From a virus: a DNA stretch of 64,000 bases. The stretch lies in IMG/VR virus record IMGVR_UViG_3300037993_001242, positions 1-64,000 of that record, one strand, 5' to 3'. Every line of letters begins with the position of its first letter. The first letter of the stretch is position 1. A program made the position numbers and the translations under genes. Below, piece by piece: positions 50,370-63,797 of the stretch. The notes beneath the pieces are model-generated. The model was not told the origin of the DNA and did no database searches. It was given only the letters and a program-made list of their open reading frames with translations.

Positions 50370-50443
50370 TGGCACCGGTGGCCCGAATCGGACGGGAACT
50401 AAGCAGTCCAAAGCTGCCTGTGCTGCCATTACACCACACCGGT
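50370..50443 (-). tRNA. tRNA-Gln(UUG)
   Basis: Cloverleaf, loop CUUUGGA, encoded CCA, T loop UCCGAUU. Confidence 0.9.
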
Positions 50444-50449
50444 ATAAAT

Positions 50450-50525
50450 TGGTACCTCCGGTGGGGCATGATCCCACAACTCCCGCATTAAAAGTGCGGT
50501 ACTCTACCAATTGAGTTACGGAGGT
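50450..50525 (-). tRNA. tRNA-Lys(UUU)
   Basis: Loop CUUUUAA, CCA; T loop AUCAUGC. Confidence 0.9.
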
Positions 50526-50531
50526 ATGAAA

Positions 50532-50615
50532 TGGTCGGCGCGGGGAGAATTGGACTCCCAAGGCTCACTCCCTCTCAAGGAGGCCGGTCTGCCATTCCCG
50601 GTAAACCACGCGCCG
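50532..50615 (-). tRNA. tRNA-Leu(GAG), atypical fold
   Basis: Loop UUGAGAG, A73-CCA; long acceptor-D linker, short variable region. Confidence 0.8.
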
Positions 50616-50616
50616 T

Positions 50617-50692
50617 TGGTTGGCCCGGTGGGGTACAATCCCACGACCTGACGATTATGAGTCGACTGCTCTATCAACTGAGCTACGGGCCA
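50617..50692 (-). tRNA. tRNA(CAU), Ile2-like
   Basis: Loop CUCAUAA; GGCCCG acceptor and CGA-CUCAUAA-UCG resemble Ile2; Met not excluded. Confidence 0.8.
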
Positions 50693-50858
50693 CTCTTGAA
50701 ATTTTCCAGCCTTTGCGTTTGGCGTACAGGTATACATCGTCGTAGGACTTGCCCACCATCCAATGAATGATCGGGGCCGCTCGCGTGCAAATCAGCAGGC
50801 TGCCTTCAAATTCGGCTCCAGCGCAAAAATAACCGCTGTCGAATTGCAGCATGAACAT
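50655..50858 (-). CDS. small phage protein (FCAG...AAPIIHWM.G...RKGW)
   Basis: 67 aa; 3' end reads into the tRNA gene. Confidence 0.5.
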   Translation of the reverse strand: MFMLQFDSGYFCAGAEFEGSLLICTRAAPIIHWMVGKSYDDVYLYAKRKGWKISRVARSSVDRAVDS

Positions 50859-50862
50859 AAAA

Positions 50863-50952
50863 TGGCGGAGGGTGCAGGCTTCGATCCTGCGCAGGTGTTA
50901 CCCCGACTTCTGGTTAGCAACCAGATACTTTACCAGACTCAGTCAACCCTCC
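50863..50952 (-). tRNA. tRNA-Ser(GCU)
   Basis: Class II with long variable arm, G73-CCA. Confidence 0.92.
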
Positions 50953-51263
50953 AAATACACTTCAAAACCACGACGCTCACCGTCCTCAACCCAGATGCCG
51001 TTGATGATGATTTCCTTGCCGATATTTTTTTGCGTCACTTTTTCCAGTTCGCCGTCTTCGCTCCCGACGTATTCCCATTTGCCGTGTCCGGCACCGGGCC
51101 ACAACTGCGCTTTATAGCGTCGGGGGCCACGGGTGCGTTCGTCCAGCTTGTCGTTGAAAGTGATGGTGACGCCGCTCGGCAAGTTTTCCGCCGTCTGCAA
51201 AAAGATAATCTCGTCGGGCCGCTTGTTGTTCAGGTCTTTGAATGTGATGGTGTTCATGCTCAT
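50943..51263 (-). CDS. hypothetical protein
   Basis: Start reassigned to 51263. Confidence 0.5.
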   Translation of the reverse strand: MSMNTITFKDLNNKRPDEIIFLQTAENLPSGVTITFNDKLDERTRGPRRYKAQLWPGAGHGKWEYVGSEDGELEKVTQKNIGKEIIINGIWVEDGERRGFEVYLEG

Positions 51264-51282
51264 GTTCCCAAGAACACGATTT

Positions 51283-51546
51283 TCAAATTTTGAACGGATG
51301 CAGCGGCGCGCCTTGTGCCATGCAATCATGCGCCCAATTTTGCGTATAGTCACAAACCGGACACACCCAACCTTTTTCTGTGGCGATTAAAATCCCGTGA
51401 TCGCCTTCATGATGTTCTTCAGCGTATTTGTGGTGGGCGTCATCGTTGCGGTTGCTACAGGTGAAGGGATGCACCCAGTCACACTGCTGCCACGCATTCA
51501 AACCCTTTACTTGCTGTTTATCCCATGGCGCGTAAATTTTGCCCAT
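51283..51546 (-). CDS. small Cys/His phage protein
   Basis: HPFTC...LIAT..GWVCPVCDYTQNWAH. Confidence 0.6.
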   Translation of the reverse strand: MGKIYAPWDKQQVKGLNAWQQCDWVHPFTCSNRNDDAHHKYAEEHHEGDHGILIATEKGWVCPVCDYTQNWAHDCMAQGAPLHPFKI

Positions 51547-51550
51547 AAGA

Positions 51551-51847
51551 TCATCGGGTTACCCAAAGCCCCATTCGCTCACAATGACGTTCGTTCAACG
51601 GAAACGGCCCCGTCCAGCCAACCTGTTTCAAATCCGAAAGAATATGCTGCCGTGCAGCTTCAGCGGCCTTCGGCCCCCACAGGTGCGCTACTTCGGCGAT
51701 CCCGGCTTCATGATGGCGTTTACGCCGGTGAGCAACGCCGCCACAGCCGGGCAGATCGTGGCAGGCATCCAACCACACGTGGACTTCGCGAAAACCTTGA
51801 CCATACGTGCTGATCGATTCAGCGCAATGTTCTTCCAAAGTTGGCAT
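51551..51847 (-). CDS. His-rich DUF6915-like protein
   Basis: EHC..S...EVHVWLD...HRRKRHHEAGI...QHILSDL. Confidence 0.55.
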   Translation of the reverse strand: MPTLEEHCAESISTYGQGFREVHVWLDACHDLPGCGGVAHRRKRHHEAGIAEVAHLWGPKAAEAARQHILSDLKQVGWTGPFPLNERHCERMGLWVTR

Positions 51848-51850
51848 AAA

Positions 51851-52078
51851 TTAAGAATACCGGTCGGGCAGACGGGCGCGCCAGTTGTCCTCCCAGTTTG
51901 CTGCTGCTTCAAATTGAGCGCGCACTTCTTCCAAAGTGGGCGGTGGTAAATTGCGCAGGTTTTCCATGCGTTGTTTCAGCCATAACGGAGCACCGAGACC
52001 GTCATCATAGTCACCGGTGCTGAGCGCTGTCAGCGCACAATGCTTAAAATCTTCATGTGTGCCTTCTTCAATTATCAT
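51851..52078 (-). CDS. hypothetical protein
   Basis: 75 aa ORF. Confidence 0.45.
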   Translation of the reverse strand: MIIEEGTHEDFKHCALTALSTGDYDDGLGAPLWLKQRMENLRNLPPPTLEEVRAQFEAAANWEDNWRARLPDRYS

Positions 52079-52080
52079 CG

Positions 52081-52118
52081 AAATAAAAGCGGCTGGACGG
52101 AAATATCCATCCAGCCGC
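52081..52118 (-). terminator. terminator after Ro60
   Basis: GCGGCTGGATGGA-TATT-TCCGTCCAGCCGC-TTTTATTT. Confidence 0.85.
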
Positions 52119-52132
52119 CGTGATTGTCTACG

Positions 52133-53848
52133 CTAATCTTCGGCTTCGTCGGCAGCAACCTTGCGGTCGCCCCGGATGAAGTCGGCGATTACCGGCGGAG
52201 CCGACGCGTCGAAACCGACCACGTCCATGCCCCACTTGTCCTCCGGGTCGTTGACCGTGAAGTCGTTGGCGCAGGTACCCACGAACACTGACCGGGTATC
52301 CGGCACGAACTTTTCACGGTACTCCCGCAGGCGCAGAGTTGGATGCGGGCCTTGGTTGACCTCGCCGTCGGTCATAACGATCAGACCGCCGATCTTCAGA
52401 CGGTTTTGCAGTGCGTACTCGATTGCCAAGCTGATGTTGGTCGAACCGAAGTTGTTCACCTGTGCCCGACGGCACGCCGTTTCCAGCGTCATGCCCTTGC
52501 GGATGCCAAGCTCGCGGAAGGTATCCGCGAATCCGAAGATATGGCATTCCGGCTCGACGCTGGCGTGAACCAGCGACAGGGCGGCGACGGCCTCACACGA
52601 AGACAGGGGAGTTCCTGCCATCGCCGAGGACATCGAACCGGACACGTCCAGCGCGATCAACAGCGGCTTGCCGCACGGTTCAACGTTCGGGAACGCCGCG
52701 TAAAAGGCTTCGTCCAGCGCCGTCATGATTGACGGAACCGGCGTCCAGCTTAGCTTACCCTTGTCACCATGGCCTTGACCGTAAATCTTGGTCGCGATCA
52801 AGACCTGCATCGGGTGAACGCGTGACTTCTTCAGGAACGCGCCGTCCTGCAACCGCTTCTGGACGAGCTTGGTGGCTTCGCCCAGCGGCTTCAGGAGACC
52901 GAGGCTGGTCATCTTGCCAAGATTACGGATCGTCGCCGTCAACGGCATCTTCTGCAACAGGGCTTCCCAGACCGCGAGGCTGTTGAGCTTCTCGGTCGGT
53001 ACGGCCTCACGCGGCAGGTTGTGCTCGGTGATCAGCTTGACCAGCGCCTTTTCGTCGGCAGTCTTGGCTTCCTCGAACGCGCCGATGATGTCCGGCAGAT
53101 ACTTTTTGACGGAAGGATACTTCCGAATACGCGGGATGTCCGGTGCCATTGACTTCGGCAGGTTGGGAAACTTTCGGGTGACCTCGCGGGCACCCAGCGC
53201 GTCCTTGCCGCCGATGATCCAGCGGAAGACGGCCTGCTGTGCCTTGACCTCGGTGACCGGGTGGGCCACGCGAAGCACGTCACGAGCCGACCAGCCGTCG
53301 CGCTGCTGATACTTGACGACCTGCGCCGCCAAACGGTCAGCGGGCATGTCCGTGAACCAGCGGGCGATAGCGCGCCGGAAACCAGAGCCGCCGCCCCGCA
53401 TCGCCGAACAGTACTGCATGAAGTGGTACAGGTGCGTACCAATCCGGCAGACCTTCGGCAGCGCGGCATAAGCTGCCTGCCGGGCTTCCGCGTCACCGTG
53501 GGTGGCGACCAGCGCCAGTGCAAAAATGGCCGGGTCGTTCTTGTAGGCGCGTCCCTTGACGGACACATCTACAATCTCCTTGACCGTCCGCACACCGCTG
53601 GCCTTGATACACTGCAACACCGCGTCGTGGCCCTGCTTGAGCAAGTCCTTTTCGTCGATGTAATAGGTGCCGCCTTCGGTACCGAGAATCAAAAACCGCG
53701 CCAGCTTGTCCCAGATGCTGACCTTCCAGACGTACGCGCCGTCCGAGTCCTGAACCTGATTCTTGCCCGGCAACGGAGTGTATACAGAGGTCGTGCGCGA
53801 ACGCTTGGCTGACCGGGTGTCGAACTGCTTGGTGCTGATGAGTGCCAT
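52133..53848 (-). CDS. rsr: Ro60 / TROVE-vWA RNA-binding protein
   Basis: LARFLILGTEGGTYY, YQQRDGWSARDVLRVAHP, MPLTATIRNLGKMT, vWA MIDAS ALDVSGSM, VMTDGE, DVVGFD. Confidence 0.97.
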   Translation of the reverse strand: MALISTKQFDTRSAKRSRTTSVYTPLPGKNQVQDSDGAYVWKVSIWDKLARFLILGTEGGTYYIDEKDLLKQGHDAVLQCIKASGVRTVKEIVDVSVKGRAYKNDPAIFALALVATHGDAEARQAAYAALPKVCRIGTHLYHFMQYCSAMRGGGSGFRRAIARWFTDMPADRLAAQVVKYQQRDGWSARDVLRVAHPVTEVKAQQAVFRWIIGGKDALGAREVTRKFPNLPKSMAPDIPRIRKYPSVKKYLPDIIGAFEEAKTADEKALVKLITEHNLPREAVPTEKLNSLAVWEALLQKMPLTATIRNLGKMTSLGLLKPLGEATKLVQKRLQDGAFLKKSRVHPMQVLIATKIYGQGHGDKGKLSWTPVPSIMTALDEAFYAAFPNVEPCGKPLLIALDVSGSMSSAMAGTPLSSCEAVAALSLVHASVEPECHIFGFADTFRELGIRKGMTLETACRRAQVNNFGSTNISLAIEYALQNRLKIGGLIVMTDGEVNQGPHPTLRLREYREKFVPDTRSVFVGTCANDFTVNDPEDKWGMDVVGFDASAPPVIADFIRGDRKVAADEAED

Positions 53849-53940
53849 ATCCTTGGAATGACAATCACACTCCAACTACGATGTGTTTTCGGGTTTTCAC
53901 CGTTGGCCCATGCCATGGGCCTGATTCTGTTTTTGTTGGA

Positions 53941-53963
53941 CGCAGGCAAGTTGGCGGCCTGCG
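53941..53963 (-). promoter_or_regulatory. minimal Ro-binding-site hairpin in the Ro60 leader
   Basis: CGCAGG-C(bulge)-CG-ccaacu-UG-CCUGCG reproduces the bulged-C helix of the Y RNAs. Confidence 0.55.
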
Positions 53964-53992
53964 AATGTCTACATTGCTGAGAACTGCATTTT

Positions 53993-54367
53993 TTAAGATT
54001 TGTTTACGAAAAAATTACAGGTTGACGTTGGCTCAACCCTGAACCGGTGTAAAAGGCATCTTGGCGGAAACCGATGCCAACCTTGTGCTTTTTTATAATA
54101 CACACAACAAATACATCCTAGTACGTCGCCCGGTGCCCGTTTTCTACTGGAACTAAGATAACCAACTTCTTCCTGTTGCCCGCGTTTGAACAATCTTTTG
54201 ACTGTGCCGACTGACCGCTGTTGAATTTTGGCTATCTTTACCCACGAAACTCCGGTTCTGCGAAGCTCGATAATGTAGGCCCAGCGCCGCCGCATCATTT
54301 TTCGGCCATTTTCAGGGGAAAGAATGCGCAGAACTTCTCGTTTGCTGACAACGTCTGGATCAAACAT
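53993..54367 (-). CDS. HTH protein with Cys-rich tail, between Y RNA and Ro60
   Basis: ELRRTGVSWVKIAKIQQRSVGTVKRL; CICC...C. Confidence 0.6.
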   Translation of the reverse strand: MFDPDVVSKREVLRILSPENGRKMMRRRWAYIIELRRTGVSWVKIAKIQQRSVGTVKRLFKRGQQEEVGYLSSSRKRAPGDVLGCICCVYYKKAQGWHRFPPRCLLHRFRVEPTSTCNFFVNKS

Positions 54368-54380
54368 GCAGTAAATAAAA

Positions 54381-54517
54381 GCGGGCAAGGGTTTGGGTCG
54401 GAGATGGCTTTCGCCAAACCACTGCTCTGCCAATTGAGCTACCCCGGCATTTGCGCCGGAGGCTGGAATCGAACCAGCAACCAACGGTTTTATGATAACC
54501 AACCACAGTCGGCCCGC
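54381..54517 (-). ncRNA. yrlA: Y RNA, YrlA type (Ro stem plus permuted tRNA-like domain)
   Basis: GCGGGCCGA/UUGCCCGC bulged-C stem; T arm GCUGG-UUCGAUU-CCAGC, closed acceptor CUCCGGC-gcaaau-GCCGGGG, D arm GCUC-AAUUGGCA-GAGC in permuted order. Confidence 0.9.
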
Positions 54518-54523
54518 TAAAGT

Positions 54524-54835
54524 TTATGGCCCGCGCAGGCGGTTTAACCGCCAATCAGTTGGTGTCGAATCCGCAATCTCTTCACCGCTGACTGTGCTGA
54601 TCGTGCCGTCTTCGTTATGCACGGTTAAAATTCTATTTTCGTAATCCCACTCCCAGCTTTCATCCCAATTACCGGTAGCACTACTGCTATCCCTGACCCA
54701 ACGCGCAATGCCGTCCAATTCAACCGCATGACTTGGCATCTGATTGTCCAGATGCTGAAGATAATCCTTCGGTCGAATCACATCAGGATCATCTTCCAGC
54801 AAAAAATCAACAAGCTGTTTTGGTGCCAAACCCAC
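54524..54835 (-). CDS. tagged hypothetical protein (APKQLVDFLLEDDPDVIRPKDYL)
   Basis: Shared tag; GTAGTTA 4 nt upstream. Confidence 0.7.
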   Translation of the reverse strand: MGLAPKQLVDFLLEDDPDVIRPKDYLQHLDNQMPSHAVELDGIARWVRDSSSATGNWDESWEWDYENRILTVHNEDGTISTVSGEEIADSTPTDWRLNRLRGP

Positions 54836-54850
54836 GCCGTAACTACTAAA

Positions 54851-54935
54851 GGCACAGGCGGGGCGTTCTCATGGGGGTGGGAGCCACCACGCCCGAATCT
54901 CAGTTCCACCCTGAACTGCTTTCAATACCTGTGCC
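54851..54935 (-). ncRNA. unclassified structured RNA A (85 nt)
   Basis: Terminal stem GGCACAGG/CCUGUGCC enclosing two hairpins; 5 nt after the tRNA-Phe CCA. Confidence 0.55.
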
Positions 54936-54940
54936 AAAAA

Positions 54941-55017
54941 TGGTGCCAAGGGCTGGTTTCGATCCAGCGACACCGACCTCTTCAGGGTCGTGCTCTACCA
55001 ATCTGAGCTACCTTGGC
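54941..55017 (-). tRNA. tRNA-Phe(GAA)
   Basis: Loop CUGAAGA, CCA; T loop AUCGAAA. Confidence 0.92.
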
Positions 55018-55019
55018 AA

Positions 55020-55265
55020 TGGTGCTGTCTTGGAACCTTCAGCAGTGGGTCGCAGTTCCGCCGTTGCTTAAATAAGCCGCAGTACTAACGCTAATGAGCG
55101 TCTGGAACACACTGCGACCCCCAGTCACGCTATTGACGACAACTTGTACTTGTCTCCCACAACCGGGTCAGCGCATTCCGCTCAAGATGGTATTGGTATC
55201 AAGCCGTGGTAGTTTACGTGATTTTCCCACACTTACGGGCAGATTTTACGATCTGCAACAGCACC
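55020..55265 (-). ncRNA. unclassified structured RNA B (~246 nt)
   Basis: Terminal stem GGUGCUGU/ACAGCACC, GGGUCGCAGU/ACUGCGACCC and several hairpins; no ORF in the track. Confidence 0.6.
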
Positions 55266-55274
55266 AAAAATAAC

Positions 55275-55342
55275 GTCCGGGAAGCCCTCAGAAAGGTCGG
55301 TGCGAACGACGCACCGTGATGTTAAAAACGAGCCACCCGGAC
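55275..55342 (-). ncRNA. unclassified structured RNA C (68 nt)
   Basis: GUCCGGG/CCCGGAC closing stem, inner CGGUGCG-ucguu-CGCACCG; 3 nt after the tmRNA CCA. Confidence 0.45.
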
Positions 55343-55345
55343 ACA

Positions 55346-55771
55346 TGGTGGAGGCGGCGAGAGTTGAACTCGCGTCTTTGACTCCGTTGCATGTTGCCAC
55401 TACACGCTTATCCCGTTTTGTACAAGCTCAGCCAGTTGGGCATCTATGTGAAAAAATCTGAGCAGGTTCGGTTGATCCAACCGTAGAAGCGCCGACATTG
55501 CTCGGCACTCACACGATCCTGCTGCATCGCTCGACCCGCCGTAGCAGGCATCCAGCGGCGAACGGTGTGGCGCTTTAGGCCACAGCAAGTTCGGCATTCA
55601 GGACGGCATCAGGGTTGGCGAAAATCGCTTCCGCCTGAGCCAGCAAGCCTGCCGGACAATCATTTGCTTCGTCAGCATTTGAGTTTTGATCCGAGTTTTT
55701 AGCGAGGCCAACGAATCATCCTCGGCGTGCAACAGCATACTTCAGTTTCAAATCGAAACCAGTACGCCCCC
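55346..55771 (-). ncRNA. ssrA: tmRNA, tag ADEANDCPAGLLAQAEAIFANPDAVLNAELAVA*
   Basis: 5' GGGGGCGUACUGGUUUCGA, 3' GCGAG-UUCAACU-CUCGC-CGCCUCC-ACCA, G3-U70 pair; tag frame 55676-55575. Confidence 0.95.
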
Positions 55772-55790
55772 ATTTCAAAGATCAAAAAAC

Positions 55791-55852
55791 GATGGGCAAG
55801 GTGGTGCAGGAAGGGTTGTCCAAGGATGATAACCTTCCAACTTCGGCCCATC
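55791..55852 (-). ncRNA. short Y RNA 2 (62 nt)
   Basis: GAUGGGCCGA/UUGCCCAUC bulged-C stem; GGUUAUCA 9 nt after CCG. Confidence 0.8.
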
Positions 55853-55855
55853 AAT

Positions 55856-55950
55856 TCGACCCGGCCCCGTCGTCAGTTCGTGCCGGAACGCACAAGAATG
55901 TCCATGCCCGGCTGATCAATTCCGGGCGCTGACCCAGTTGTACCTGTGCC
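55856..55950 (-). ncRNA. unclassified structured RNA D
   Basis: Starts GGCACAGGUA like RNA A; GUCAG/CUGAC junction with GCCCGG/CCGGGC and GUGC/GCAC hairpins; 4 nt after the fMet CCA. Confidence 0.5.
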
Positions 55951-55954
55951 AAAT

Positions 55955-56031
55955 TGGTTGCGGGGGAAGGATTCCAACCTCCGACCTCTTGGTTATGAGC
56001 CAAGCGCGCTTGCGGACTGCGCCACCCCGCG
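55955..56031 (-). tRNA. initiator tRNA-fMet(CAU)
   Basis: C1:A72 mismatch, CGCGGGG acceptor, loop CUCAUAA. Confidence 0.88.
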
Positions 56032-56049
56032 ATCAAAAAGAACACGATA

Positions 56050-56078
56050 TTTGTAATCCTGCTGATTAAAAACGTCAA
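56050..56078 (-). promoter_or_regulatory. sigma70-type promoter for the fMet/Y RNA/tmRNA run
   Basis: TTGACG-17 nt-TACAAA about 18 nt upstream of fMet. Confidence 0.55.
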
Positions 56079-56097
56079 CAAAATTTTCACAGGAAAT

Positions 56098-56181
56098 TGG
56101 TCGGCGCGAAGGGACTTGAACCCCCAAGGATCACTCATTTTGAATGAGGTCAGTCTGCCATTCCTGATGAACCACGCGCCG
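56098..56181 (-). tRNA. tRNA-Leu(CAA), atypical fold
   Basis: Loop UUCAAAA; linker UGGUUCAU, variable GAUCCUU. Confidence 0.85.
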
Positions 56182-56185
56182 AAAA

Positions 56186-56494
56186 TCAATCTTCGCCGGT
56201 GACCTGCCGCAAAAGTTTTTTGGCGTAGTCCGCCGCGATCCACACTTCCGCTTCGTCGTCGTCGATGTAAACTTCAAAACCAACGTCGTTTTTATTGCAG
56301 TAGTCGTAGACCGCTTTAACCTCTGGATTGGTTTGGGCAATGTATTCGGCTACATAATCGGCAGCATAATTCCCGGCAAATCCGATTTTGCGCAAATCGA
56401 TTAGTTGGTCATACGTGGCCTGTTGAAACCACGGTTCAGCATCGAAGCTAACCTCCATGGCATTGTCATCGGATATGATTGTCGCCGGGATCAT
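56186..56494 (-). CDS. hypothetical phage protein
   Basis: MIPATIISDDNAMEVSFDAEPWF... Confidence 0.6.
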   Translation of the reverse strand: MIPATIISDDNAMEVSFDAEPWFQQATYDQLIDLRKIGFAGNYAADYVAEYIAQTNPEVKAVYDYCNKNDVGFEVYIDDDEAEVWIAADYAKKLLRQVTGED

Positions 56495-56506
56495 CGTCTT
56501 AAATAC

Positions 56507-56591
56507 TGGTCGCCGGAGCGGGACTCGAACCCGCAAGGCTGCTGGATTTTAAGTCCAGTGGGTCTGCCAATTCCACCTTAACCACCCGGCG
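56507..56591 (-). tRNA. tRNA-Leu(UAA), atypical fold
   Basis: Loop CUUAAAA; linker UGGUUAAG, variable CAGCCUU. Confidence 0.85.
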
Positions 56592-56632
56592 AATACTCCA
56601 AAAAGTTTCTGATGAACGGAAGTAGTTAAGCC

Positions 56633-57646
56633 GTGAGAACAAAACACAAGATTCTGTTCATCCTGAAACGGCATCACTATGGGCCGTCCTACGGATTGCT
56701 GAATTCCTGCCAGTTCGTCGCCGAAGCTCTCCGCAGGGAAGGCGTCGAGACCAAAATCATCGAAGTTGTAGACAACAACAGCATTGACCGTGAAGTCACG
56801 CGCTATTTGCCGACGCACGTAATCATCGAAGCTTTGTGGGTTGTTCCCCAAAAATTTCCCGTCTTGCTCCAACTTCATCCCGCCATCCAGTGGGCCGTTC
56901 GCATTCACAGTAACGCACCGTTTCTTTCCGGCGAAGGCATGGCGCTGGAATGGCTGTACGGCTACGGCAAGGTGGCCAAAACTTTCAGTAATTTCCATGT
57001 CGGAGCCAACAGCCGCAAAATGTCCACGGAACTTGATCTGGCGTTGGGTATGGACTCCCTTTATCTGCCAAACATTTACACCGACAGCCTGACCCAGAAA
57101 CGACTGCCTCCGCCATTTGAAAAATCACATCAGGCGCACGTGAACATCGGCTGCTTTGGCGCGATCCGACCGCTCAAAAATCACTTGGAGCAGGCGCTGG
57201 CCGCGATTATTTTTGCCCGTTCAATTGGGCGGCCATTACGATTCCACATCAACGCCACCCGTGTTGAACAAAATTCCGATCCGATTTTGCGCAACTTGAT
57301 CAGCCTGTTCGCCCACGGGCCAAATCATTTGGTACAGCATCCGTGGATGCCGCACGATCAATTCATCGAAGTGCTGCGCCGCATGGATTATGGAATGCAG
57401 GTCAGTTTCTCGGAAACCTTCAACATCGTGGCCGCCGACTTCGTATACAACGAAATCCCGTTCGTTGGATCAAAGGAAATTGAATGGCTGGCATCCCACA
57501 GTATTGCCGATCCAACCAACTGGGAAAGCATTGTTGACCGGCTAAACCAAAGCTACTCGCACCACATCATTCACGAAAACAAACACGCCCTGCATTCTTT
57601 CAGTATTCAATCACTGAAAGAATGGCTGGAATACATCGACGATTAA
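56633..57646 (+). CDS. GT-B glycosyltransferase (GT4-like)
   Basis: GCFGAIRPLKNH, MQVSFSETFNIVAAD; GTAGTTA 4 nt upstream. Confidence 0.82.
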   Translation: MRTKHKILFILKRHHYGPSYGLLNSCQFVAEALRREGVETKIIEVVDNNSIDREVTRYLPTHVIIEALWVVPQKFPVLLQLHPAIQWAVRIHSNAPFLSGEGMALEWLYGYGKVAKTFSNFHVGANSRKMSTELDLALGMDSLYLPNIYTDSLTQKRLPPPFEKSHQAHVNIGCFGAIRPLKNHLEQALAAIIFARSIGRPLRFHINATRVEQNSDPILRNLISLFAHGPNHLVQHPWMPHDQFIEVLRRMDYGMQVSFSETFNIVAADFVYNEIPFVGSKEIEWLASHSIADPTNWESIVDRLNQSYSHHIIHENKHALHSFSIQSLKEWLEYIDD

Positions 57647-57650
57647 AATT

Positions 57651-58445
57651 ATGGCCTTTAGACACAACACCAAATACGGCTGGCGGCGCGACCGCCCGGA
57701 CATCCGCGACTTCAAATTCGAGCGCATGGTCACGCTCAAAACCCTGCGCACCACGGCGCTTCCGGCGCACGTTTATCTGCGCCGTTTTTGCTCACAAATT
57801 ACAGATCAGGGCCAACTTGGGTCTTGCACTGCCAACGCATTGACCAATCTGCTGGAATACAACGAATGTGCCAACGGACGCGGCGGTAAACAGTTCAAGG
57901 ATTTGAGCCGTCTTTTTGTTTATTACAACGAACGGACACTGGAAGGTACTGCTGGTCAGGACGCCGGAGCCGAACTGCGTGATGGCATCAAATCATTGGC
58001 CACCTACGGGGTCTGCCCGGAAACCGAATGGCCTTACGTCGAAAATAAATTTGCCATGCCTCCCACGACACAATGCTACGGCGACGCCATTCCTTACAAA
58101 ATCCACAGCTACTACACCCTGAACACCCTTACTGACATGCGCGTTAGCTTGGCTAACGGCAATCCCTTCGTCTTCGGATTCACTGTATACGAATCGTTTG
58201 AATCTGACGAAGTCGCCAGCACCGGAATCGTCCAGATGCCCAAAGCGGGCGAACAAGTTTTAGGTGGTCATGCGGTCATGGCCATGGGCTACAACGACGC
58301 CCAGCAGCGGTTCCTCGTCAAAAACTCGTGGGGCAAAGACTGGGGTCTCAAAGGCGAATTGGGCGGCTATTTCACCTTGCCCTACGGCTATTTTACCGAC
58401 CCAAACCTGTCGTCCGACTTTTGGACGGTGGTCAAGGACATCTGA
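57651..58445 (+). CDS. papain-like C1 family cysteine peptidase
   Basis: DQGQLGSCTANA, GGHAV, KNSWG catalytic motifs. Confidence 0.95.
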   Translation: MAFRHNTKYGWRRDRPDIRDFKFERMVTLKTLRTTALPAHVYLRRFCSQITDQGQLGSCTANALTNLLEYNECANGRGGKQFKDLSRLFVYYNERTLEGTAGQDAGAELRDGIKSLATYGVCPETEWPYVENKFAMPPTTQCYGDAIPYKIHSYYTLNTLTDMRVSLANGNPFVFGFTVYESFESDEVASTGIVQMPKAGEQVLGGHAVMAMGYNDAQQRFLVKNSWGKDWGLKGELGGYFTLPYGYFTDPNLSSDFWTVVKDI

Positions 58446-58448
58446 AAT

Positions 58449-58533
58449 TGGTGCCGGTGAAGGGACTCGAACCCCCAAGGCTGCGGCGTCCTAAGCGCCG
58501 TGGGTCTGCCAATTCCCCGTTAACCACACCGGC
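58449..58533 (-). tRNA. tRNA-Leu(UAG), atypical fold
   Basis: Loop CUUAGGA; linker UGGUUAAC, variable CAGCCUU. Confidence 0.85.
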
Positions 58534-58539
58534 ATAAAT

Positions 58540-58623
58540 TGGTCGCGCTGAGTGGACTTGAACCACCAAGGATCACCGCCTCTGAAGCGGGCCGGTCTGC
58601 CATTCCCGGTAAACCACAGCGCG
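58540..58623 (-). tRNA. tRNA-Leu(CAG), atypical fold
   Basis: Loop UUCAGAG; linker UGGUUUAC, variable GAUCCUU. Confidence 0.85.
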
Positions 58624-58635
58624 TAATTAAATCAG

Positions 58636-59244
58636 ATGAAACGAAATCCAAAGCCGCTGCCAGATCGTGGCGATCCGGCGCATGATCCGCATCTCCCGCA
58701 CACGACGCGGTATCAAAAACGCGACATTGAGCACCTGATCCCACCAGAAGCCAATGCCGTTATCGAGCAGCAGTGGCCGGAGGTTATTCGTACGTTCCAG
58801 CAATACGATGAAGGCGCTGGAATGCTGATGCTTTTTGGCCTCGTCCGCGACGCGTGCAAAGCAGCAAAGTGGCCTGACACCATGGCCTATCAGATGCGCG
58901 ATTATCTGCTCACCAAGCTCAATGCCGAAAAAGTCAAAACATACACCGGGAGCGATGACCGCCCCGGTGACTGGAAGGTTTTCAACATGAAAGAGTCCGC
59001 CGAACAAATTGTCGACCGTCTGCTGGAATACGGCCTACCCAATACTCCCACAAGCGCCGATCTTAAAATCGAAAATCACGGCAGCATCGTTTTGGTTCGG
59101 CCCTTAACCGACGCCGGTAAAGAAGGGCTGCGAAGAACCGCCCCTGAAGATGCACAATTCATGGGCGACGCCATGGCGGTCGAACCCCGCTACGTCGAAG
59201 GCGTCACTGACGCCGCGCAAGAGGATGGTCTGACCGTTTCGTAG
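58636..59244 (+). CDS. two-part protein with internal tag (ESAEQIVDRLLEYG)
   Basis: GTAATTA 6 nt upstream. Confidence 0.7.
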   Translation: MKRNPKPLPDRGDPAHDPHLPHTTRYQKRDIEHLIPPEANAVIEQQWPEVIRTFQQYDEGAGMLMLFGLVRDACKAAKWPDTMAYQMRDYLLTKLNAEKVKTYTGSDDRPGDWKVFNMKESAEQIVDRLLEYGLPNTPTSADLKIENHGSIVLVRPLTDAGKEGLRRTAPEDAQFMGDAMAVEPRYVEGVTDAAQEDGLTVS

Positions 59245-59255
59245 TTAACATCGGT

Positions 59256-59789
59256 ATGAACATCGACGAACGAGAAGCCAAACTGAGCACCGGCAAACGC
59301 TTTGCCAAACTGGAGCGGCCATCGACCCGCAAAAAAAGCACCCAAGACACAGGTGCAAGCTGGATGCCACACGGCGGCCAAAAAACATCCAGCAAAGAAC
59401 GCCTTCAAAAAAGTGGCGCAAGCTGGCTACCACATCACGAATCTGCCGCCCAGATCGTGGCCCGCCTGCTGGAATATGAAAATGTTGCCAGCACGGGAGG
59501 GCCGGGCAACACCGGTACTGGTTACAACCCGGAAACTCTGCACCAAACCATTCGCTATTTGATGCAGACGCTCGGTATCGACTATCCAGAAGCGCGTGAT
59601 ATTGCCATGCAGCATCACGATCCCAAAGCGGGCGGTACACGTGAACCAATGCAGGCGGCTGAACCTGAAGCGGCGGAACCACCGCCTGAACGACCGTTGA
59701 TGACGCAACGGCCTGAAACTCATTGCGGTCGCTGTGGATCGAGACATCACCACACCGCCAATTGCCACTTGAGCGGCATACCGCTGTAA
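59256..59789 (+). CDS. protein with duplicated GASW(M/L)PH and internal tag (ESAAQIVARLLEYE), C-terminal Zn knuckle
   Basis: CGRCGSRHHHTANC; GTAGTTA 8 nt upstream. Confidence 0.7.
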   Translation: MNIDEREAKLSTGKRFAKLERPSTRKKSTQDTGASWMPHGGQKTSSKERLQKSGASWLPHHESAAQIVARLLEYENVASTGGPGNTGTGYNPETLHQTIRYLMQTLGIDYPEARDIAMQHHDPKAGGTREPMQAAEPEAAEPPPERPLMTQRPETHCGRCGSRHHHTANCHLSGIPL

Positions 59790-59791
59790 AA

Positions 59792-59866
59792 TGGTACGCC
59801 CGACTGGACTTTAACCAGTAACCTGTGGTTCCGAAGACCACTGCTCTATCATTGAGCTACGAGCGC
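59792..59866 (-). tRNA. tRNA-Arg(UCG)
   Basis: Loop CUUCGGA; T loop UUAAAGU. Confidence 0.88.
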
Positions 59867-60088
59867 ATGAAAGCCGAACAAATCGTTAACATCCTTCTGG
59901 AAGCCGGGCCAGATGAAGTCCCGCCCAAGGACTATCTTAAAAAAGTCCCTCCGCCTCCACGTTGTCCGATGTGTGACAGCTTTAACGTCAAGGTCGTGCG
60001 CCGCCCGGAAGACAATTCCATCGATTACGCGGAATGTTTGGACTGCGGCGAAATCGGGCTGTCTTTCTTTAGCGACGAGAATAGTTAA
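59867..60088 (+). CDS. tagged zinc-ribbon protein (MKAEQIVNILLEAGPDEVPPKDYL)
   Basis: CPMC...CLDC. Confidence 0.75.
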   Translation: MKAEQIVNILLEAGPDEVPPKDYLKKVPPPPRCPMCDSFNVKVVRRPEDNSIDYAECLDCGEIGLSFFSDENS

Positions 60089-60092
60089 AGTG

Positions 60093-60362
60093 ATGAATGC
60101 AAAACAGATTGTAACTGTGCTTCTTGAACTGGAGCACCCCATTGCCCGTTGCCCCGTTTGCAGCGGAAACAGTATGCACGAAATCATGGGTCTTGAACAC
60201 GGCTGGCGTTGTAATATCTGCGGACACGAATTCCAGTGGCCACCACCAGAGCATCCTCCTTTGGCTGGAGAAAAAACCAAATCAAAAATCCCACCCAAAG
60301 CCATGATGATGGCCGTCACTGGCGGTTCGGACTTCCCGATTGCAGGCGGCGGTCAGGGCTGA
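60093..60362 (+). CDS. tagged zinc-ribbon protein (MNAKQIVTVLLELE)
   Basis: CPVC...CNIC; ATAGTTA 5 nt upstream. Confidence 0.75.
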   Translation: MNAKQIVTVLLELEHPIARCPVCSGNSMHEIMGLEHGWRCNICGHEFQWPPPEHPPLAGEKTKSKIPPKAMMMAVTGGSDFPIAGGGQG

Positions 60363-60376
60363 CGTAGTTAAGATAT

Positions 60377-60790
60377 ATGGCAGACAGCACAACAACCAAC
60401 GGTGTGGTTCTTCAAACGCCTTACGCGTACCTGAAGAATTTCGTAAGAGTGCGCCCGTTTACGGTATCAGTGATCGGCGTCAATCCGCTGCTCAATCAAA
60501 ACAGCGACAATTTGCGAGTCTTCCCCACCAACTACCAGAGCCAACTATACGGTGTCGCCAATGGCATCATTGTATACGTCGGTGACAAAATTCATTTCGA
60601 CCTTCAAGCCCCTTGCAACGATGCCACGGCCCCTGCCTTTGACCTCATTCAAGTCAACCCATCGACTGGTGTCGAGACGACGCAGGAAACGGCGCGGTTT
60701 ACCGCCAAATGGCAGCGCAGCATGGTCATCACCGTCACGGCCATCAACGCCTCAACGGGAGCCATTACGTACACTGTCGCTTATCGGTAA
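60377..60790 (+). CDS. beta-rich hypothetical, probable virion protein
   Basis: 137 aa; GTAGTTA 6 nt upstream. Confidence 0.65.
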   Translation: MADSTTTNGVVLQTPYAYLKNFVRVRPFTVSVIGVNPLLNQNSDNLRVFPTNYQSQLYGVANGIIVYVGDKIHFDLQAPCNDATAPAFDLIQVNPSTGVETTQETARFTAKWQRSMVITVTAINASTGAITYTVAYR

Positions 60791-60791
60791 A

Positions 60792-60868
60792 TGGTGCGGC
60801 GAGCAGGCTTCGATCCTGCGACTTCCACGATGTCAACGTGGCGATCTACCGGGCTGATCTACCGCCGC
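60792..60868 (-). tRNA. tRNA-Val(GAC)
   Basis: Loop UUGACAU; T loop AUCGAAG. Confidence 0.92.
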
Positions 60869-60872
60869 AAAA

Positions 60873-60948
60873 TGGAGCCAGCAGAGGGCTTCGATCCCCC
60901 GACATTCAGTTTACAGAACTGACGCTCTACCAACTGAGCTATGCTGGC
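60873..60948 (-). tRNA. tRNA-Thr(UGU) with C33
   Basis: Stem UCAGU/ACUGA, loop UCUGUAA. Confidence 0.82.
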
Positions 60949-60954
60949 CTAAAT

Positions 60955-61030
60955 TGGTGCGTTGGGTGGGCAACGATCCCACAATCTTCCGGGTAAGGGC
61001 CGGGTGCTCTGCCAATTGAGCTACCAACGC
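60955..61030 (-). tRNA. tRNA-Lys(CUU) with C33
   Basis: Stem CCCGG/CCGGA, loop CCCUUAC. Confidence 0.78.
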
Positions 61031-61035
61031 AAAAA

Positions 61036-61111
61036 TGGTCGCTGTGGGCGGGTACGATCCGCCGACCTTTTCCTTATGAGGGAACTGCGCTACCAACTGC
61101 GCCACACAGCG
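61036..61111 (-). tRNA. tRNA-Met(CAU), elongator-like
   Basis: Loop CUCAUAA, paired C1-G72. Confidence 0.82.
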
Positions 61112-61118
61112 TGAAAAA

Positions 61119-61685
61119 TCAATTTATAGCGCTAAAAGCTTCGCTTAACTGCTCTCCAAGTTCCGGCGTGATTCTGTTCGCCGGAACAAACGCCTGTACG
61201 GCATAGCGCCCATTAAAAACATGCGGGCCAACCGTTATAGAAAATTCAGCTTGCGGAAACCGAGTTTCCAGCGCGCTCATTCTGTGCCAAAGGTCTCGTT
61301 CAATTTCCTCCGTCGTCACGGGGCCTTCCCACGCGTCGCGGATGGCCTGTTCATCGTCGCTTCCCTCTGGATTAAGAAATTTTTCTTCAAAAAGAACACC
61401 ATACTGCCCGTCCATTATCCGCTGTACGATGAAATTGTTTTCCCAGCCACCAATACACCGCTGTAGACGCTGAATGATATTTTTTACTTTTCGGGATGCA
61501 CCGGGAATTTTCGGCACACCTTCGCCGGATTCCAAATCTTGACCCCAACGATCACTGAGATACTTAAATTCCTCGGCGCGCTTAATCTTGTCCCGCCAAC
61601 CGGGCAGCCGCATCACTTCCGCTTTGGCGGGCAGTTCATCCGGCCCAACCTCAAGCAGTCGATTCACTAACGCCTTTGCATTCAT
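61119..61685 (-). CDS. tagged hypothetical protein (MNAKALVNRLLEVGPDELPAK)
   Basis: Shared tag, 188 aa. Confidence 0.72.
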   Translation of the reverse strand: MNAKALVNRLLEVGPDELPAKAEVMRLPGWRDKIKRAEEFKYLSDRWGQDLESGEGVPKIPGASRKVKNIIQRLQRCIGGWENNFIVQRIMDGQYGVLFEEKFLNPEGSDDEQAIRDAWEGPVTTEEIERDLWHRMSALETRFPQAEFSITVGPHVFNGRYAVQAFVPANRITPELGEQLSEAFSAIN

Positions 61686-61689
61686 AACA

Positions 61690-61765
<76 letters not shown>

Positions 61766-61769
61766 AAAA

Positions 61770-61845
61770 TGGAGCGAACGACGGGAAACGATCCCGCAAC
61801 ATCCGCGTTGGAAGCGCGGTGCTCTGCCAATTGAGCTACGTTCGC
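61770..61845 (-). tRNA. tRNA-Gly(UCC)
   Basis: Loop CUUCCAA, U73. Confidence 0.92.
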
Positions 61846-61857
61846 AAAAATTCAAGA

Positions 61858-62214
61858 TCATGGATGGCCTTCGTTGGCCTTTTTGGCGGCAGCTTCACGC
61901 TGCTGTTGTTCCACCCATTGCTCCCATTCTATAAAACTTGGGATATGACCAATGATTTGATCACCATTTCTCAGCATACCGTGACTAAAATCTTTGGTCA
62001 CCGTTTTATAACCAACGGACGGCGTGGGCTGGCCAGTGAGGCTCATATCCGCCGGATAATAACCTGTAAAGACACCGTCAGTGACTGAACCATCGGGATG
62101 CTGAATTTTGATCGGAATTTCAAGATGCTTAATGCGTCCATATTCCAACAGCAAATCCACGATGTTGCGCGCATTTTCTTGGATGCGGGCGTTTTTTTCA
62201 GCACTGTCACTCAT
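61858..62214 (-). CDS. tagged hypothetical protein (QENARNIVDLLLEYG)
   Basis: Start 62214 with GTAATTA 5 nt upstream. Confidence 0.68.
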   Translation of the reverse strand: MSDSAEKNARIQENARNIVDLLLEYGRIKHLEIPIKIQHPDGSVTDGVFTGYYPADMSLTGQPTPSVGYKTVTKDFSHGMLRNGDQIIGHIPSFIEWEQWVEQQQREAAAKKANEGHP

Positions 62215-62236
62215 TACTTTAATTACCAAAGCAAAT

Positions 62237-62312
62237 TGGAGACCAACCAGAGACTCGAACTCTGCTAAATCGGTTTTGCAGACCGTTCCGTTCACCCGCT
62301 CGGTCGTTGGCC
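62237..62312 (-). tRNA. tRNA-Cys(GCA)
   Basis: Loop CUGCAAA, U73. Confidence 0.88.
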
Positions 62313-62740
62313 GTTATTGGAGAAATTATGTTCTCCAATGTATGAAATTGAAAGTAAAAATCTTAAAATTAAAAACGCAAAGGAATTTGCAACAAAGAGA
62401 TAGCGGAAAAACTCGGATGCAGTCCAACAACCATAACGTATCATTGCAACGAAGCTTATCGTAAACGGCACACTTTTAACAGGCAACGACGACGTTCTGA
62501 AATAAAAACCCAGATTGTAAATCAATTTGGTGGCAAGTGCAAAATTTGTGGTTACGACCGTTGCGTCGATGCCTTGGAGTTTCACCATACCAAAGATAAA
62601 GACTCGGTTATTTTACTAAAAGGAAGCGCGGGTTTATCAAGATTACCATTCAAAATCTTAATGGCTGAACTCAAAAAGTGTATACTTTTGTGCTGTCGCT
62701 GCCATCGTGAAGTCCATGCCGGTGTTGTTTCTATTTAAAT

Positions 62741-63069: not shown

Positions 63070-63146
63070 GTGGGCAAAAATCGTCGGAGGACATTGACAG
63101 AAACGCTTAATAGGCATTTGTTGATAACCCTCAGACAGCGGCCCAC
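63070..63146 (-). ncRNA. short Y RNA 3 (77 nt)
   Basis: GUGGGCCG/UGCCCAC stem; GGUUAUCA 9 nt after CCG; 3-4 nt spacers to the flanking tRNAs. Confidence 0.78.
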
Positions 63147-63733: not shown

Positions 63734-63797
63734 TACGGGCAAGGTGTCAGACTGGGATGGTTCATTTCAAGTGATAACCCAATCAATTCGGCCCGTA
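63734..63797 (-). ncRNA. short Y RNA 4 (64 nt)
   Basis: UACGGGCCGA/UUGCCCGUA stem; GGUUAUCA 9 nt after CCG. Confidence 0.8.

What the first reader, a model, noticed from the sequence alone, without database searches (positions are those of the whole stretch)
54381..54517. YrlA-type Y RNA: circularly permuted tRNA mimic with a canonical elbow
Seen, in order: Ro stem, GGUUAUCA, AAACCGU, T arm (UUCGAUU), acceptor stem closed by a GCAAAU loop, D arm (AAUUGGCA), GUGGUUU pairing back to AAACCGU, a GGC-GAAA-GCC tetraloop, then the Ro stem 3' strand. This is the YrlA layout, with the anticodon arm replaced by the link to the Ro stem. It keeps the textbook GG and UUCG elbow while most true tRNAs in this window do not. 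Inference: it could be a decoy for elbow-recognising host enzymes.
Basis: partly seen in the sequence, partly recalled or inferred. Interest (0 to 1): 0.75.

Follow-up and report, generated by a model that had tools for sequence, protein, structure and literature searches.

The report
Phage Y RNA with tRNA-like module
This 137-base stretch of an uncultured peat-soil phage encodes a small RNA of the known YrlA class: a docking stem for the phage's own Ro60 protein joined to a tRNA written in rotated order. It is a well-supported but ordinary new member of a family described in 2014.

Summary
It has a terminal helix with a bulged C, GGUUAUCA, a two-strand anticodon-like stem, a T arm (UUCGAUU) and a 7-bp acceptor stem closed by GCAAAU. 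It also has a D arm (AAUUGGCA), a GGC-GAAA-GCC hairpin and a U run.

Rfam YrlA matches at 39.9 bits, below the gathering score of 69, with E about 1e-7. A model built here scores it 111.9 bits and finds 162 relatives in viral contigs. All six modelled helices covary (89.6% paired against 63.7% shuffled).

A Ro60 gene (TROVE plus vWA) lies about 0.5 kb downstream on the same strand. Mycobacteriophage Alice and Gordonia phage Cashline carry the same RNA next to their Ro genes. It is therefore a new member of the phage YrlA group of Chen et al. 2014.

The comparison with the phage's tRNAs is half right. Only 1 of 18 window tRNAs keeps UUCRA, but 13 of 18 keep GG. The decoy idea is untested, and family-wide constraint on the elbow explains the contrast as well.

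This scan already followed up the paralogue at 64.4 kb of the same genome.

The parts
54381..54517 (-). Whole YrlA-type Y RNA (137 nt)
   Evidence: Rfam RF02553 39.9 bits over 54392-54505. Own model R1 111.9 bits over 54380-54518.
54509..54517 (-). Ro60-binding helix, 5' strand GCGGGC-C-GA (bulged C at 54511)
   Evidence: Sequence. Helix 1 in A2: 88% paired, 8 of 8 pairs with changes on both sides. Resembles GGUCCGA of animal Y RNAs (PMC4201824).
54381..54388 (-). Ro60-binding helix, 3' strand UUGCCCGC
   Evidence: Pairs with 54509-54517.
54493..54500 (-). GGUUAUCA octamer, 8 nt after CCGA; its GG closes the middle helix
   Evidence: The pattern GGCCG-N9-GGTTATCA occurs 4 times in the window against 0 expected. 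Human Y4 has the same octamer and spacing (PMC7012775).
54499..54504 (-). Middle helix 5' strand GGUUGG; pairs with CCGACC at 54396-54401
   Evidence: RNAfold. Helix 2 in A2: 83% paired, 5 of 5 pairs covary.
54396..54401 (-). Middle helix 3' strand CCGACC
54484..54490 (-). Anticodon-like stem, strand AAACCGU (tRNA positions 39-43 plus 2)
   Evidence: In the short-variable-loop class, 14 of 27 members have 5 of 5 pairs and 6 have 4 of 5; shifted controls mostly give 1-3.
54416..54422 (-). Anticodon-like stem, strand GUGGUUU (tRNA positions 27-31 plus 2)
   Evidence: helix 3.
54479..54483 (-). 5-nt variable loop UGGUU; its last U is position 48, Levitt partner of A15
   Evidence: 15:48 is G:C in 54 and A:U in 27 of 89 relatives.
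54462..54478 (-). T arm GCUGG-UUCGAUU-CCAGC
   Evidence: helix 4 is 99.6% paired.
54442..54461 (-). Closed acceptor stem: CUCCGGC, loop GCAAAU, GCCGGGG (7 bp)
   Evidence: helix 5 is 93% paired, 6 of 6 modelled pairs covary.
54424..54439 (-). D arm GCUC-AAUUGGCA-GAGC, preceded by U8 and A9 at 54441-54440
   Evidence: helix 6 is 97% paired.
54406..54415 (-). GNRA hairpin GGC-GAAA-GCC at the three-way junction
   Evidence: Present in 5 relatives with covarying stems and GNRA loops: GAAA, GUAA, GCAA.
54373..54380 (-). U run UUUUAUUU straight after the terminal helix; likely 3' end or terminator
   Evidence: Sequence. Not called by the simple terminator scan, whose loop limit is 8 nt.
52133..53875 (-). 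Ro60 orthologue (580-aa ORF; the true start may lie further in)
   Evidence: Pfam TROVE 1e-39 and vWA_Ro60 2e-38; PHROG 850 RNA-binding protein 1e-66; 361 phage records with homologues.
53993..54367 (-). Small ORF (124 aa from the ATG at 54367) between the Y RNA and Ro60, with a weak HTH signal
   Evidence: Pfam HTH_23 E 0.0011, below its cut-off; no PHROG match.
55791..55852 (-). Small paralogous Y RNA (no tRNA module) just upstream of the tmRNA gene
   Evidence: Same GGGCCGA-N8-GGUUAUCA and CCUUGCCC ends, then a U run.
63070..63146 (-). Small paralogous Y RNA
63734..63797 (-). Small paralogous Y RNA
   Evidence: Weak match to the Rfam nematode family RF01656 (28.7 bits, E 0.005). That these are stem-bulge RNAs related to Y RNAs is from my memory, not checked here.

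Best explanation
The stretch is the gene of a YrlA-type Y RNA of a roughly 200-kb phage from peat and wetland metagenomes.

Shown:
- The 5' and 3' ends pair into a bulged helix that carries the Ro60 recognition sequence (GGGC-C-GA with UUGCCC).
- The interior folds as a complete tRNA body in rotated order: T arm, closed 7-bp acceptor stem, D arm, and a two-strand anticodon-like stem in place of the anticodon arm.
- All nucleotides needed for the tRNA elbow and core are present: U8, A14, A15:U48, G18 G19, U54 U55 C56, A58.
- A Ro60 gene lies about 0.5 kb downstream on the same strand.

Inferred from the family (Chen et al. 2014; Wang et al. 2018; the phiLo Ro60 study of 2025):
- The RNA binds the phage Ro60 ring through the terminal helix.
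- It gates access to the ring, and it presents the L-shaped tRNA-like module as a handle for a tRNA-elbow-binding partner or host PNPase. This would retarget host RNA decay or RNA quality control during infection.
- Host TruB and Dus enzymes probably modify the module.
- Because the acceptor stem has 7 bp, as in M. smegmatis YrlA, RNase P may nick it.

It is one of at least two YrlA-type and four small Y RNAs in this phage's tRNA/tmRNA island.
For: - Rfam YrlA match, E 5e-7 and 1.9e-8. Tandem tRNAs give at most about 24-27 bits against 39.9 here.
- Ro60 gene with TROVE 1e-39 and vWA_Ro60 2e-38 on the same strand.
- Own model R1: 111.9 bits, 162 matches at E <= 1e-5.
- Covariation: 89.6% of cells paired against 63.7% shuffled. 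Score 0.64 against 0.20 shuffled and about 0.09 with slid partners. 31 of 33 pairs show changes on both sides.
- 57 of 118 viral loci fetched by the RNA pattern alone carry a Ro60 gene within the few kb held.
- Levitt pair covaries; two-strand anticodon-like stem and GNRA hairpin are supported.
- The orthologue in the closest relative sits 155 nt upstream of its Ro gene and has an identical Ro helix.
- Alice and Cashline carry R1 matches directly upstream of Ro.
- Family properties come from PMC4201824, bioRxiv 10.1101/312249 and PMC12135203.
Against: - The Rfam score is below the curated gathering threshold (39.9 against 69).
- The strict 5' motif GNCGAA reads GCCGAC here.
- The relatives were partly collected with a pattern taken from this family, and A2 was fitted to the model's structure. 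Conservation of the T loop, of the D-arm start TAGCTCA and of GGUUAUC in that set is therefore by construction; only the stem covariation is informative.
- Function of the tRNA-like module is unknown even for the type members.
- RNAfold's MFE prefers another pairing for GUGGUUU.
Confidence: 0.9

Rival explanations
1. Decoy or sensor. The phage's tRNAs have lost the UUC T loop to escape a host enzyme that reads it, such as a T-loop-cutting Schlafen-type nuclease. The Y RNA keeps a textbook elbow so that it soaks up that enzyme, or reports its activity by being cut.
For: - Only 1 of 18 window tRNAs, and at most 7 of 41 ARAGORN calls genome-wide (one of them a piece of the second Y RNA), have UUCRA. 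24 have A54.
- Relative G002 has 3 of 13.
- All three tRNA-like Y RNA modules of this genome, and the Y RNAs of G001 and G002, keep UUCRA.
- CbCash cuts at UUC in the T loop and is blocked by single U54 or U55 changes (PMC13462974).
Against: - The canonical elbow is conserved in YrlA RNAs of phages whose tRNAs are ordinary (G007, G009, G010) and in bacteria (PMC4201824). Its retention here needs no special explanation.
- The searches that found the Y RNAs reward a canonical T loop.
- No nuclease, host or stoichiometry is known.
- One or two small RNAs would have to compete with the whole host tRNA pool.
Confidence: 0.1
2. Two-piece Y RNA, which is not exclusive with the best explanation. RNase P nicks the closed acceptor stem before G70. 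The GCAAAU tail is then trimmed and repaired to CCA, as shown for M. smegmatis YrlA. The result is a nicked RNP with a tRNA-like 3' end.
For: - 7-bp acceptor stem, as in M. smegmatis YrlA, which is an RNase P substrate (PMC4201824; 10.1101/312249).
- The loop reads N-CAA-AU, and the paralogue has U-CCA-AU.
- 15 of 97 parsed relatives start the loop with N-CCA, where about 1.5 are expected.
Against: - The loop here is CAA, not CCA.
- 22 relatives close the stem with a tetraloop and cannot need processing.
- Salmonella YrlA and D. radiodurans Yrn1 are not cleaved at this site.
- No CCA-adding enzyme gene in the held part of the phage.
Confidence: 0.2
3. Cis-acting element only: a structured terminator or attenuator, or a relic of a tRNA dimer, in front of the small ORF and the Ro60 gene, with no function as a free RNA.
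For: - The terminal helix is followed by a U run 10 nt before the ATG of the next ORF.
- YrlA RNAs are thought to derive from tRNA dimers (10.1101/312249).
- Tandem tRNAs weakly match the YrlA model.
Against: - Compensatory changes maintain all helices, including acceptor, D and anticodon-like stems, across 134 distinct sequences.
- The Ro-binding sequence and GGUUAUCA recur in four more RNAs of this genome that sit elsewhere in the tRNA array.
- No anticodon loop exists, so it cannot be a decoding permuted tRNA.
Confidence: 0.05

Closest known systems
YrlA RNAs of actinobacteriophages and Mycobacterium smegmatis (Chen et al. 2014, PMC4201824; Rfam RF02553)
   Same: - Encoded next to Ro60 on the same strand.
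- Same order: T arm, closed acceptor stem, D arm.
- Tertiary-contact nucleotides conserved, and the Levitt pair covaries.
- 7-bp acceptor stem, as in M. smegmatis.
- My model built on this element hits mycobacteriophage Alice (79.7 bits) and Gordonia phage Cashline (78.3 and 53.4 bits) directly upstream of their Ro genes.
   Different: - From an uncultured peat phage with only about 40% Ro identity to those phages.
- Scores below the Rfam gathering score.
- Both strands of the Ro helix are recognisable.
- Has a GNRA hairpin at the junction.
- Sits in an island with about 40 tRNAs, a tmRNA and five other Y RNAs.
Salmonella Typhimurium YrlA (crystal structure 6CU1; Wang et al. 2018, bioRxiv 10.1101/312249)
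   Same: - L-shaped tRNA mimic with a closed acceptor stem and no anticodon loop.
- The anticodon stem is made of two strands that lead to the Ro module.
- A conserved YUAY/UA lies near the junction (UUAU within GGUUAUC here).
   Different: - The Salmonella acceptor stem has 6 bp, and only the 5' strand of the Ro site is recognisable.
- Salmonella YrlA lies in the rsr-yrlBA-rtcBA operon (from memory; the paper that covers that operon, PMC7790460, was listed but not read). No RtcB is found in the held part of this phage.
Animal Y RNAs (e.g. human Y4)
   Same: The 5' strand is GG-N-CCGA, then 8 nt, then GGUUAUCA. This matches the published human Y4 5' end GGUCCGA-UGGUAGUG-GGUUAUCA (PMC7012775). 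The bulged-C helix is formed by both ends.
   Different: - Animal Y RNAs have no tRNA-like module (PMC4201824).
- The Rfam Y_RNA model gave no match at E <= 10 here.
Thermus phage phiLo Ro60 with Yrl1 and Yrl2 (PMC12135203)
   Same: A phage-encoded Ro60 with Y RNA-like genes beside it. That work shows binding of the phage Ro60 to its RNAs and assembly with host PNPase.
   Different: Yrl1 and Yrl2 are described as stem-bulge-stem RNAs with a CGAA motif, and no tRNA-like domain is reported. They resemble the small paralogues of this window more than this element.

Membership tests
YrlA (Y RNA-like A; Chen et al. 2014) | Encoded within about 4 kb of a Ro60 orthologue on the same strand | tested here: met
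   The Ro60 ORF 52133-53875(-) starts at least 505 nt downstream of the RNA's 3' end.
YrlA (Y RNA-like A; Chen et al. 2014) | 5' motif GNCGAAN0-1G, related to GGUCCGA, the Ro60 contact | tested here: inconclusive
   Reads GCCGAC (5 of 6). The paralogue at 64.4 kb reads GCCGAAG exactly. The wider GG-N-CCGA with bulged C and a pairing 3' strand is present.
YrlA (Y RNA-like A; Chen et al. 2014) | T-arm-like then D-arm-like stem-loops with the invariant tRNA nucleotides, T before D | tested here: met
   GCUGG-UUCGAUU-CCAGC and GCUC-AAUUGGCA-GAGC. Helices are 99.6% and 97% paired in relatives.
YrlA (Y RNA-like A; Chen et al. 2014) | Stem-loop between T and D that stands for a closed acceptor stem | tested here: met
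   7 bp closed by GCAAAU. Six of the seven pairs were modelled (63-70 was left out of the structure); all six covary and are 93% paired.
YrlA (Y RNA-like A; Chen et al. 2014) | Tertiary pairs of tRNA can form, with a covarying Levitt pair 15:48 | tested here: met
   A15:U48 here. G:C in 54 and A:U in 27 of 89 relatives. U8, A14, G18 G19, U54, A58 all present.
YrlA (Y RNA-like A; Chen et al. 2014) | Two-strand anticodon-like stem linking the tRNA module to the Ro module (6CU1) | tested here: met
   AAACCGU pairs with GUGGUUU. Supported in the short-variable-loop class. It is the weakest helix over the whole family, at 75% paired.
Rfam RF02553 YrlA | Score at or above the curated gathering threshold (69 bits) | tested here: not met
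   39.9 bits, E 5e-7. None of 12 related phage records reached the threshold either, nor did D. radiodurans among the control genomes.
Y RNA (functional definition) | Bound by Ro60 in vivo; modified by TruB and Dus | not testable with these tools
   No RNA data; the host is unknown.
Permuted tRNA gene (decoding) | Anticodon loop of 7 nt with an anticodon | tested here: not met
   The anticodon-like stem opens into a three-way junction with the GNRA hairpin and the middle helix. ARAGORN calls no tRNA here.

The most novel reading that the evidence does not exclude
In this phage lineage, where the tRNAs have shed the UUC T loop, the Ro60-bound YrlA RNAs are the only phage RNAs that still show a textbook elbow. 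They might serve as bait or sensor for a host nuclease or enzyme that reads UUC in the T loop, linking Ro60 and Y RNA to the conflict over tRNA cleavage.
Probability: 0.1. Interest if true: 0.75.

Novelty: new member of a known kind. Interest (0 to 1): 0.3.

Why it matters
It adds a clean, comparatively supported YrlA to a phage lineage far from the actinophages in which phage Y RNAs were first reported.

It also shows that Rfam's gathering score misses this viral clade. More than 118 viral contigs carry the signature, none of the 12 related records checked reached the threshold, and none of the three deposited phage records inspected annotates the RNA. In Alice the match lies under two small 'hypothetical protein' calls.

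The function of the tRNA-like handle is still an open question for the whole family. A phage that pairs it with a near-complete, elbow-remodelled tRNA set is a useful natural contrast, but the element itself is not a surprise to a specialist.

Tried and rejected
- **megablast of the locus against deposited phages:** no match.
- **Simple promoter scan:** none found. The terminator scan did not call the Y RNA because the closing helix spans the whole RNA.
- **Structure-only detector for a permuted tRNA:** it gives many chance matches in the window. Only the sequence-aware models are discriminating.
- **Sequencing runs:** no RNA holder listed. Contigs of four peat and wetland DNA runs laid on 53900-54900 are identical to the window over the Y RNA. 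They therefore gave no population-level covariation.
- **Origin of the module:** compared with the phage's own tRNAs, none is close, so a recent origin from one of them is not supported.
- **RtcB and CCA-adding enzyme:** not found in the held 199 kb.
- **Neighbouring ORFs:** no RNA-repair context. Only a papain-like protease and a PD-(D/E)XK nuclease were recognised.
- **Sinorhizobium phage Phosso (best Ro match among cultured phages):** no R1 match within 4 kb of Ro.
- **Annual Review on bacterial Ro60:** could not be read.
- **MAFFT seed alignment A1:** imperfect, with G009c misplaced. The model was used only to re-align hits.

Full report
**What is there.** The window is the first 64 kb of a 199-kb IMG/VR virus record (linear, estimated 82% complete). 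That record recurs in peat and wetland metagenomes sampled in several years. From about 50 kb onward the minus strand carries a dense RNA island. ARAGORN and Rfam find 18 tRNAs and a tmRNA in the window, and about 40 tRNAs in the genome.

I checked each coordinate against the plus-strand ruler; the parts list gives them.

**Is it more than chance?**
- The Rfam YrlA model (RF02553) aligns end to end over 54392-54505. The score is 39.9 bits, with E 5e-7 against all families on 1.3 kb and 1.9e-8 over the genome.
- This is below Rfam's gathering score of 69. None of 12 related phage records reached that score either.
- The trivial look-alike gives at most about 24-27 bits in this genome. That look-alike is the T arm of one tRNA followed by the D arm of the next in a tandem array.
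- A purely structural detector is not specific, so the evidence rests on sequence-plus-structure models and on comparison.

**Surroundings.**
- The 580-aa ORF at 52133-53875 on the same strand is a Ro60 orthologue. It matches TROVE at 1e-39, vWA_Ro60 at 2e-38 and PHROG 850 at 1e-66. It has 361 homologous phage records, mostly actinophages and all under 60% identity.
- Between the RNA and Ro60 lies a 124-aa ORF with a sub-threshold HTH signal.
- A U run follows the terminal helix, 10 nt before that ORF's ATG.

**Relatives and covariation.**
- Ro60-anchored loci from IMG/VR contain YrlA-like matches near Ro.
- From eleven of these I built a covariance model, R1.
- Independently of Ro, a DNA signature was scanned over viral contigs. 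It is GGTTATC, a gap, GGTTCGANTCC, a gap, then TAGCTCA. Of those loci, 57 carry a Ro60 gene within the few kb held.
- R1 scores the window element at 111.9 bits. It finds 162 matches at E <= 1e-5 in 100 sources, often several in tandem.
- On the resulting alignment (134 distinct rows), 89.6% of cells pair against 63.7% in shuffles. The covariation score is 0.64, against 0.20 in shuffles and about 0.09 with slid partners. Changes on both sides occur in 31 of 33 pairs.
- Per helix, the share paired is: Ro helix 88%, middle helix 83%, anticodon-like stem 75%, T 99.6%, acceptor 93%, D 97%.

Two caveats apply. The alignment is fitted to the model. The pattern fixes the T loop, the D-arm start TAGCTCA and GGUUAUC. 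Only the stems are therefore informative.

RNAfold alone pairs GUGGUUU with the hairpin region instead of AAACCGU.
- Among the 27 relatives with a short variable region, the class this element belongs to, the 5-bp stem at tRNA positions 27-31/39-43 has 5 of 5 pairs in 14 and 4 of 5 in 6. A shifted control mostly gives 1-3.
- The last nucleotide of the 5-nt variable loop covaries with D-loop position 15. It is G:C in 54 and A:U in 27 of 89 relatives, and A:U here. Chen et al. found the same for YrlA.
- The GGC-GAAA-GCC hairpin recurs in five members: GGC-GUAA-GCC in the closest relative, GGC-GCAA-GCC, GCC-GUAA-GGC and GGG-GAAA-CCC. The loop is always GNRA and the stem covaries.
- A second, larger class replaces the two-strand stem by a 3-4-bp hairpin with a 7-nt loop. 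This is the 'V' stem-loop of Chen et al. The paralogue at 64.4 kb belongs to it.

**The Ro module.**
- The terminal helix GCGGGC-C-GA with UUGCCCGC retains both strands and the bulged C. Chen et al. state that only the 5' strand is recognisable in Salmonella and M. smegmatis YrlA.
- Eight nucleotides after CCGA comes GGUUAUCA. The pattern GGCCG-N9-GGTTATCA occurs four times in the window against none expected: here, and in three small RNAs at 55791-55852, 63070-63146 and 63734-63797.
- Those three share the same ends but have no tRNA module.
- The published 5' end of human Y4 RNA reads GGUCCGA, eight nucleotides, GGUUAUCA (PMC7012775).
- GGUUAUC therefore belongs to the Ro-binding half, not to the tRNA half. 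It contains the YUAY/UA that Wang et al. saw kinking the Salmonella stem.

**Family membership.** Mycobacteriophage Alice has an R1 match (79.7 bits) ending 160 nt before its Ro gene. The match lies under two annotated 'hypothetical protein' ORFs. Gordonia phage Cashline has two in tandem, and no record annotates them. Mycobacteriophages are the phage group in which Chen et al. reported YrlA RNAs. The element is thus a new member of a known kind. The membership table lists which defining features were met, the one that was not (the Rfam threshold) and the one that was inconclusive (the strict GNCGAA motif).

**How it most likely works.**

*Shown here:* the gene, its fold by covariation, and its linkage to Ro60.

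*Inferred from the family:*
- The terminal helix docks on the outer surface of the phage Ro60 ring.
- The RNA gates the ring.
- The tRNA-like L presents a conserved elbow, with D and T stems, to an unidentified tRNA-binding partner. Alternatively, as shown for D. radiodurans and for Thermus phage phiLo, the RNP assembles with host PNPase.
- Host TruB and Dus enzymes probably modify it.
- With a 7-bp acceptor stem it may be nicked by RNase P, like M. smegmatis YrlA. Its loop, G-CAA-AU, looks like a decayed discriminator-CCA plus a 2-nt linker. The paralogue has U-CCA-AU, and 15 of 97 relatives keep N-CCA.

**The decoy idea.**
- The contrast is real for the T loop. Of 18 window tRNAs only one has UUCRA and 11 have A54; genome-wide 24 of about 40 have A54.
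- Relative G002 has 3 of 13 with UUCRA, although its Y RNA keeps UUCAAAU.
- GG, however, is kept in 13 of 18 window tRNAs.
- A T-loop nuclease that needs U54 and U55 exists (CbCash, PMC13462974), so the idea can be tested.
- Against it, YrlA elbows are just as canonical in phages with ordinary tRNAs and in bacteria. My searches also favour canonical T loops.
- I give the idea about 0.1.

**Verdict.** The YrlA reading is supported. The decoy inference is unsupported but not excluded. The element is a new member of a known kind and of modest interest.

Noticed in passing
window 50370-63227 and G000 up to 74307 (minus strand): The phage's tRNAs nearly all lack the UUC T loop. 24 of about 40 have A54 (AUCGAAG, AUCGUxx); several Arg tRNAs have UUAAAGU and no GG. 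All encode CCA. Relative G002 avoids UUC in a different way (UGCAAxU). Other Ro-encoding phages mostly keep UUCRA.
   Followed up: partly
window 55791-55852, 63070-63146, 63734-63797 (minus); G000:70845-70932 (minus): Small Y RNAs with the same Ro helix and GGUUAUCA but no tRNA module. One lies directly upstream of the tmRNA gene and one starts about 5 nt after a tRNA CCA end. One weakly matches the Rfam nematode family RF01656, which from memory comprises stem-bulge RNAs related to Y RNAs.
   Followed up: partly
G000:64389-64519 (minus), just beyond the window: Second YrlA-type Y RNA (R1 109.2 bits). Its acceptor loop reads U-CCA-AU and it has a 7-nt-loop hairpin in place of the two-strand anticodon-like stem. 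It is embedded between tRNAs with no terminator.
   Followed up: partly
G000:71546-71672 (minus): Third permuted tRNA-like core (T arm UUCAAAU, acceptor stem closed by a 13-nt loop starting C-CCA, D arm). No recognisable GGGCCGA/GGUUAUC Ro module. YrlA 27.4 bits; R1 40 bits over the core only.
   Followed up: no
G000:111560-111633 (minus): tRNA with a CUA anticodon (ARAGORN labels it 'Pyl'), far from the main array. It could be an amber suppressor, so TAG may be read through in part of the genome.
   Followed up: no
window 55346-55771 (minus): Phage-encoded tmRNA (Rfam 113.5 bits) with an unusually long predicted tag of 33 residues ending AELAVA.
   Followed up: no
L165 3568-3907 (Mycobacterium phage Alice gp218, gp219): Two small annotated 'hypothetical protein' ORFs overlap the R1 match (3635-3776) just upstream of the Ro gene. 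They are probably mis-called over the Y RNA gene.
   Followed up: no
IMG/VR loci L051, L059, L072, L106, L111, L115: Several contigs labelled as giant-virus MAGs (GVMAG) carry the same Y RNA signature. Either these bins contain phage DNA or the RNA reaches further than phages.
   Followed up: no
window 57651-58445 (+) and 63235-63657 (-): A papain-family cysteine protease (E 9e-14) and a PD-(D/E)XK endonuclease (E 6e-32) are interspersed in the tRNA island.
   Followed up: no
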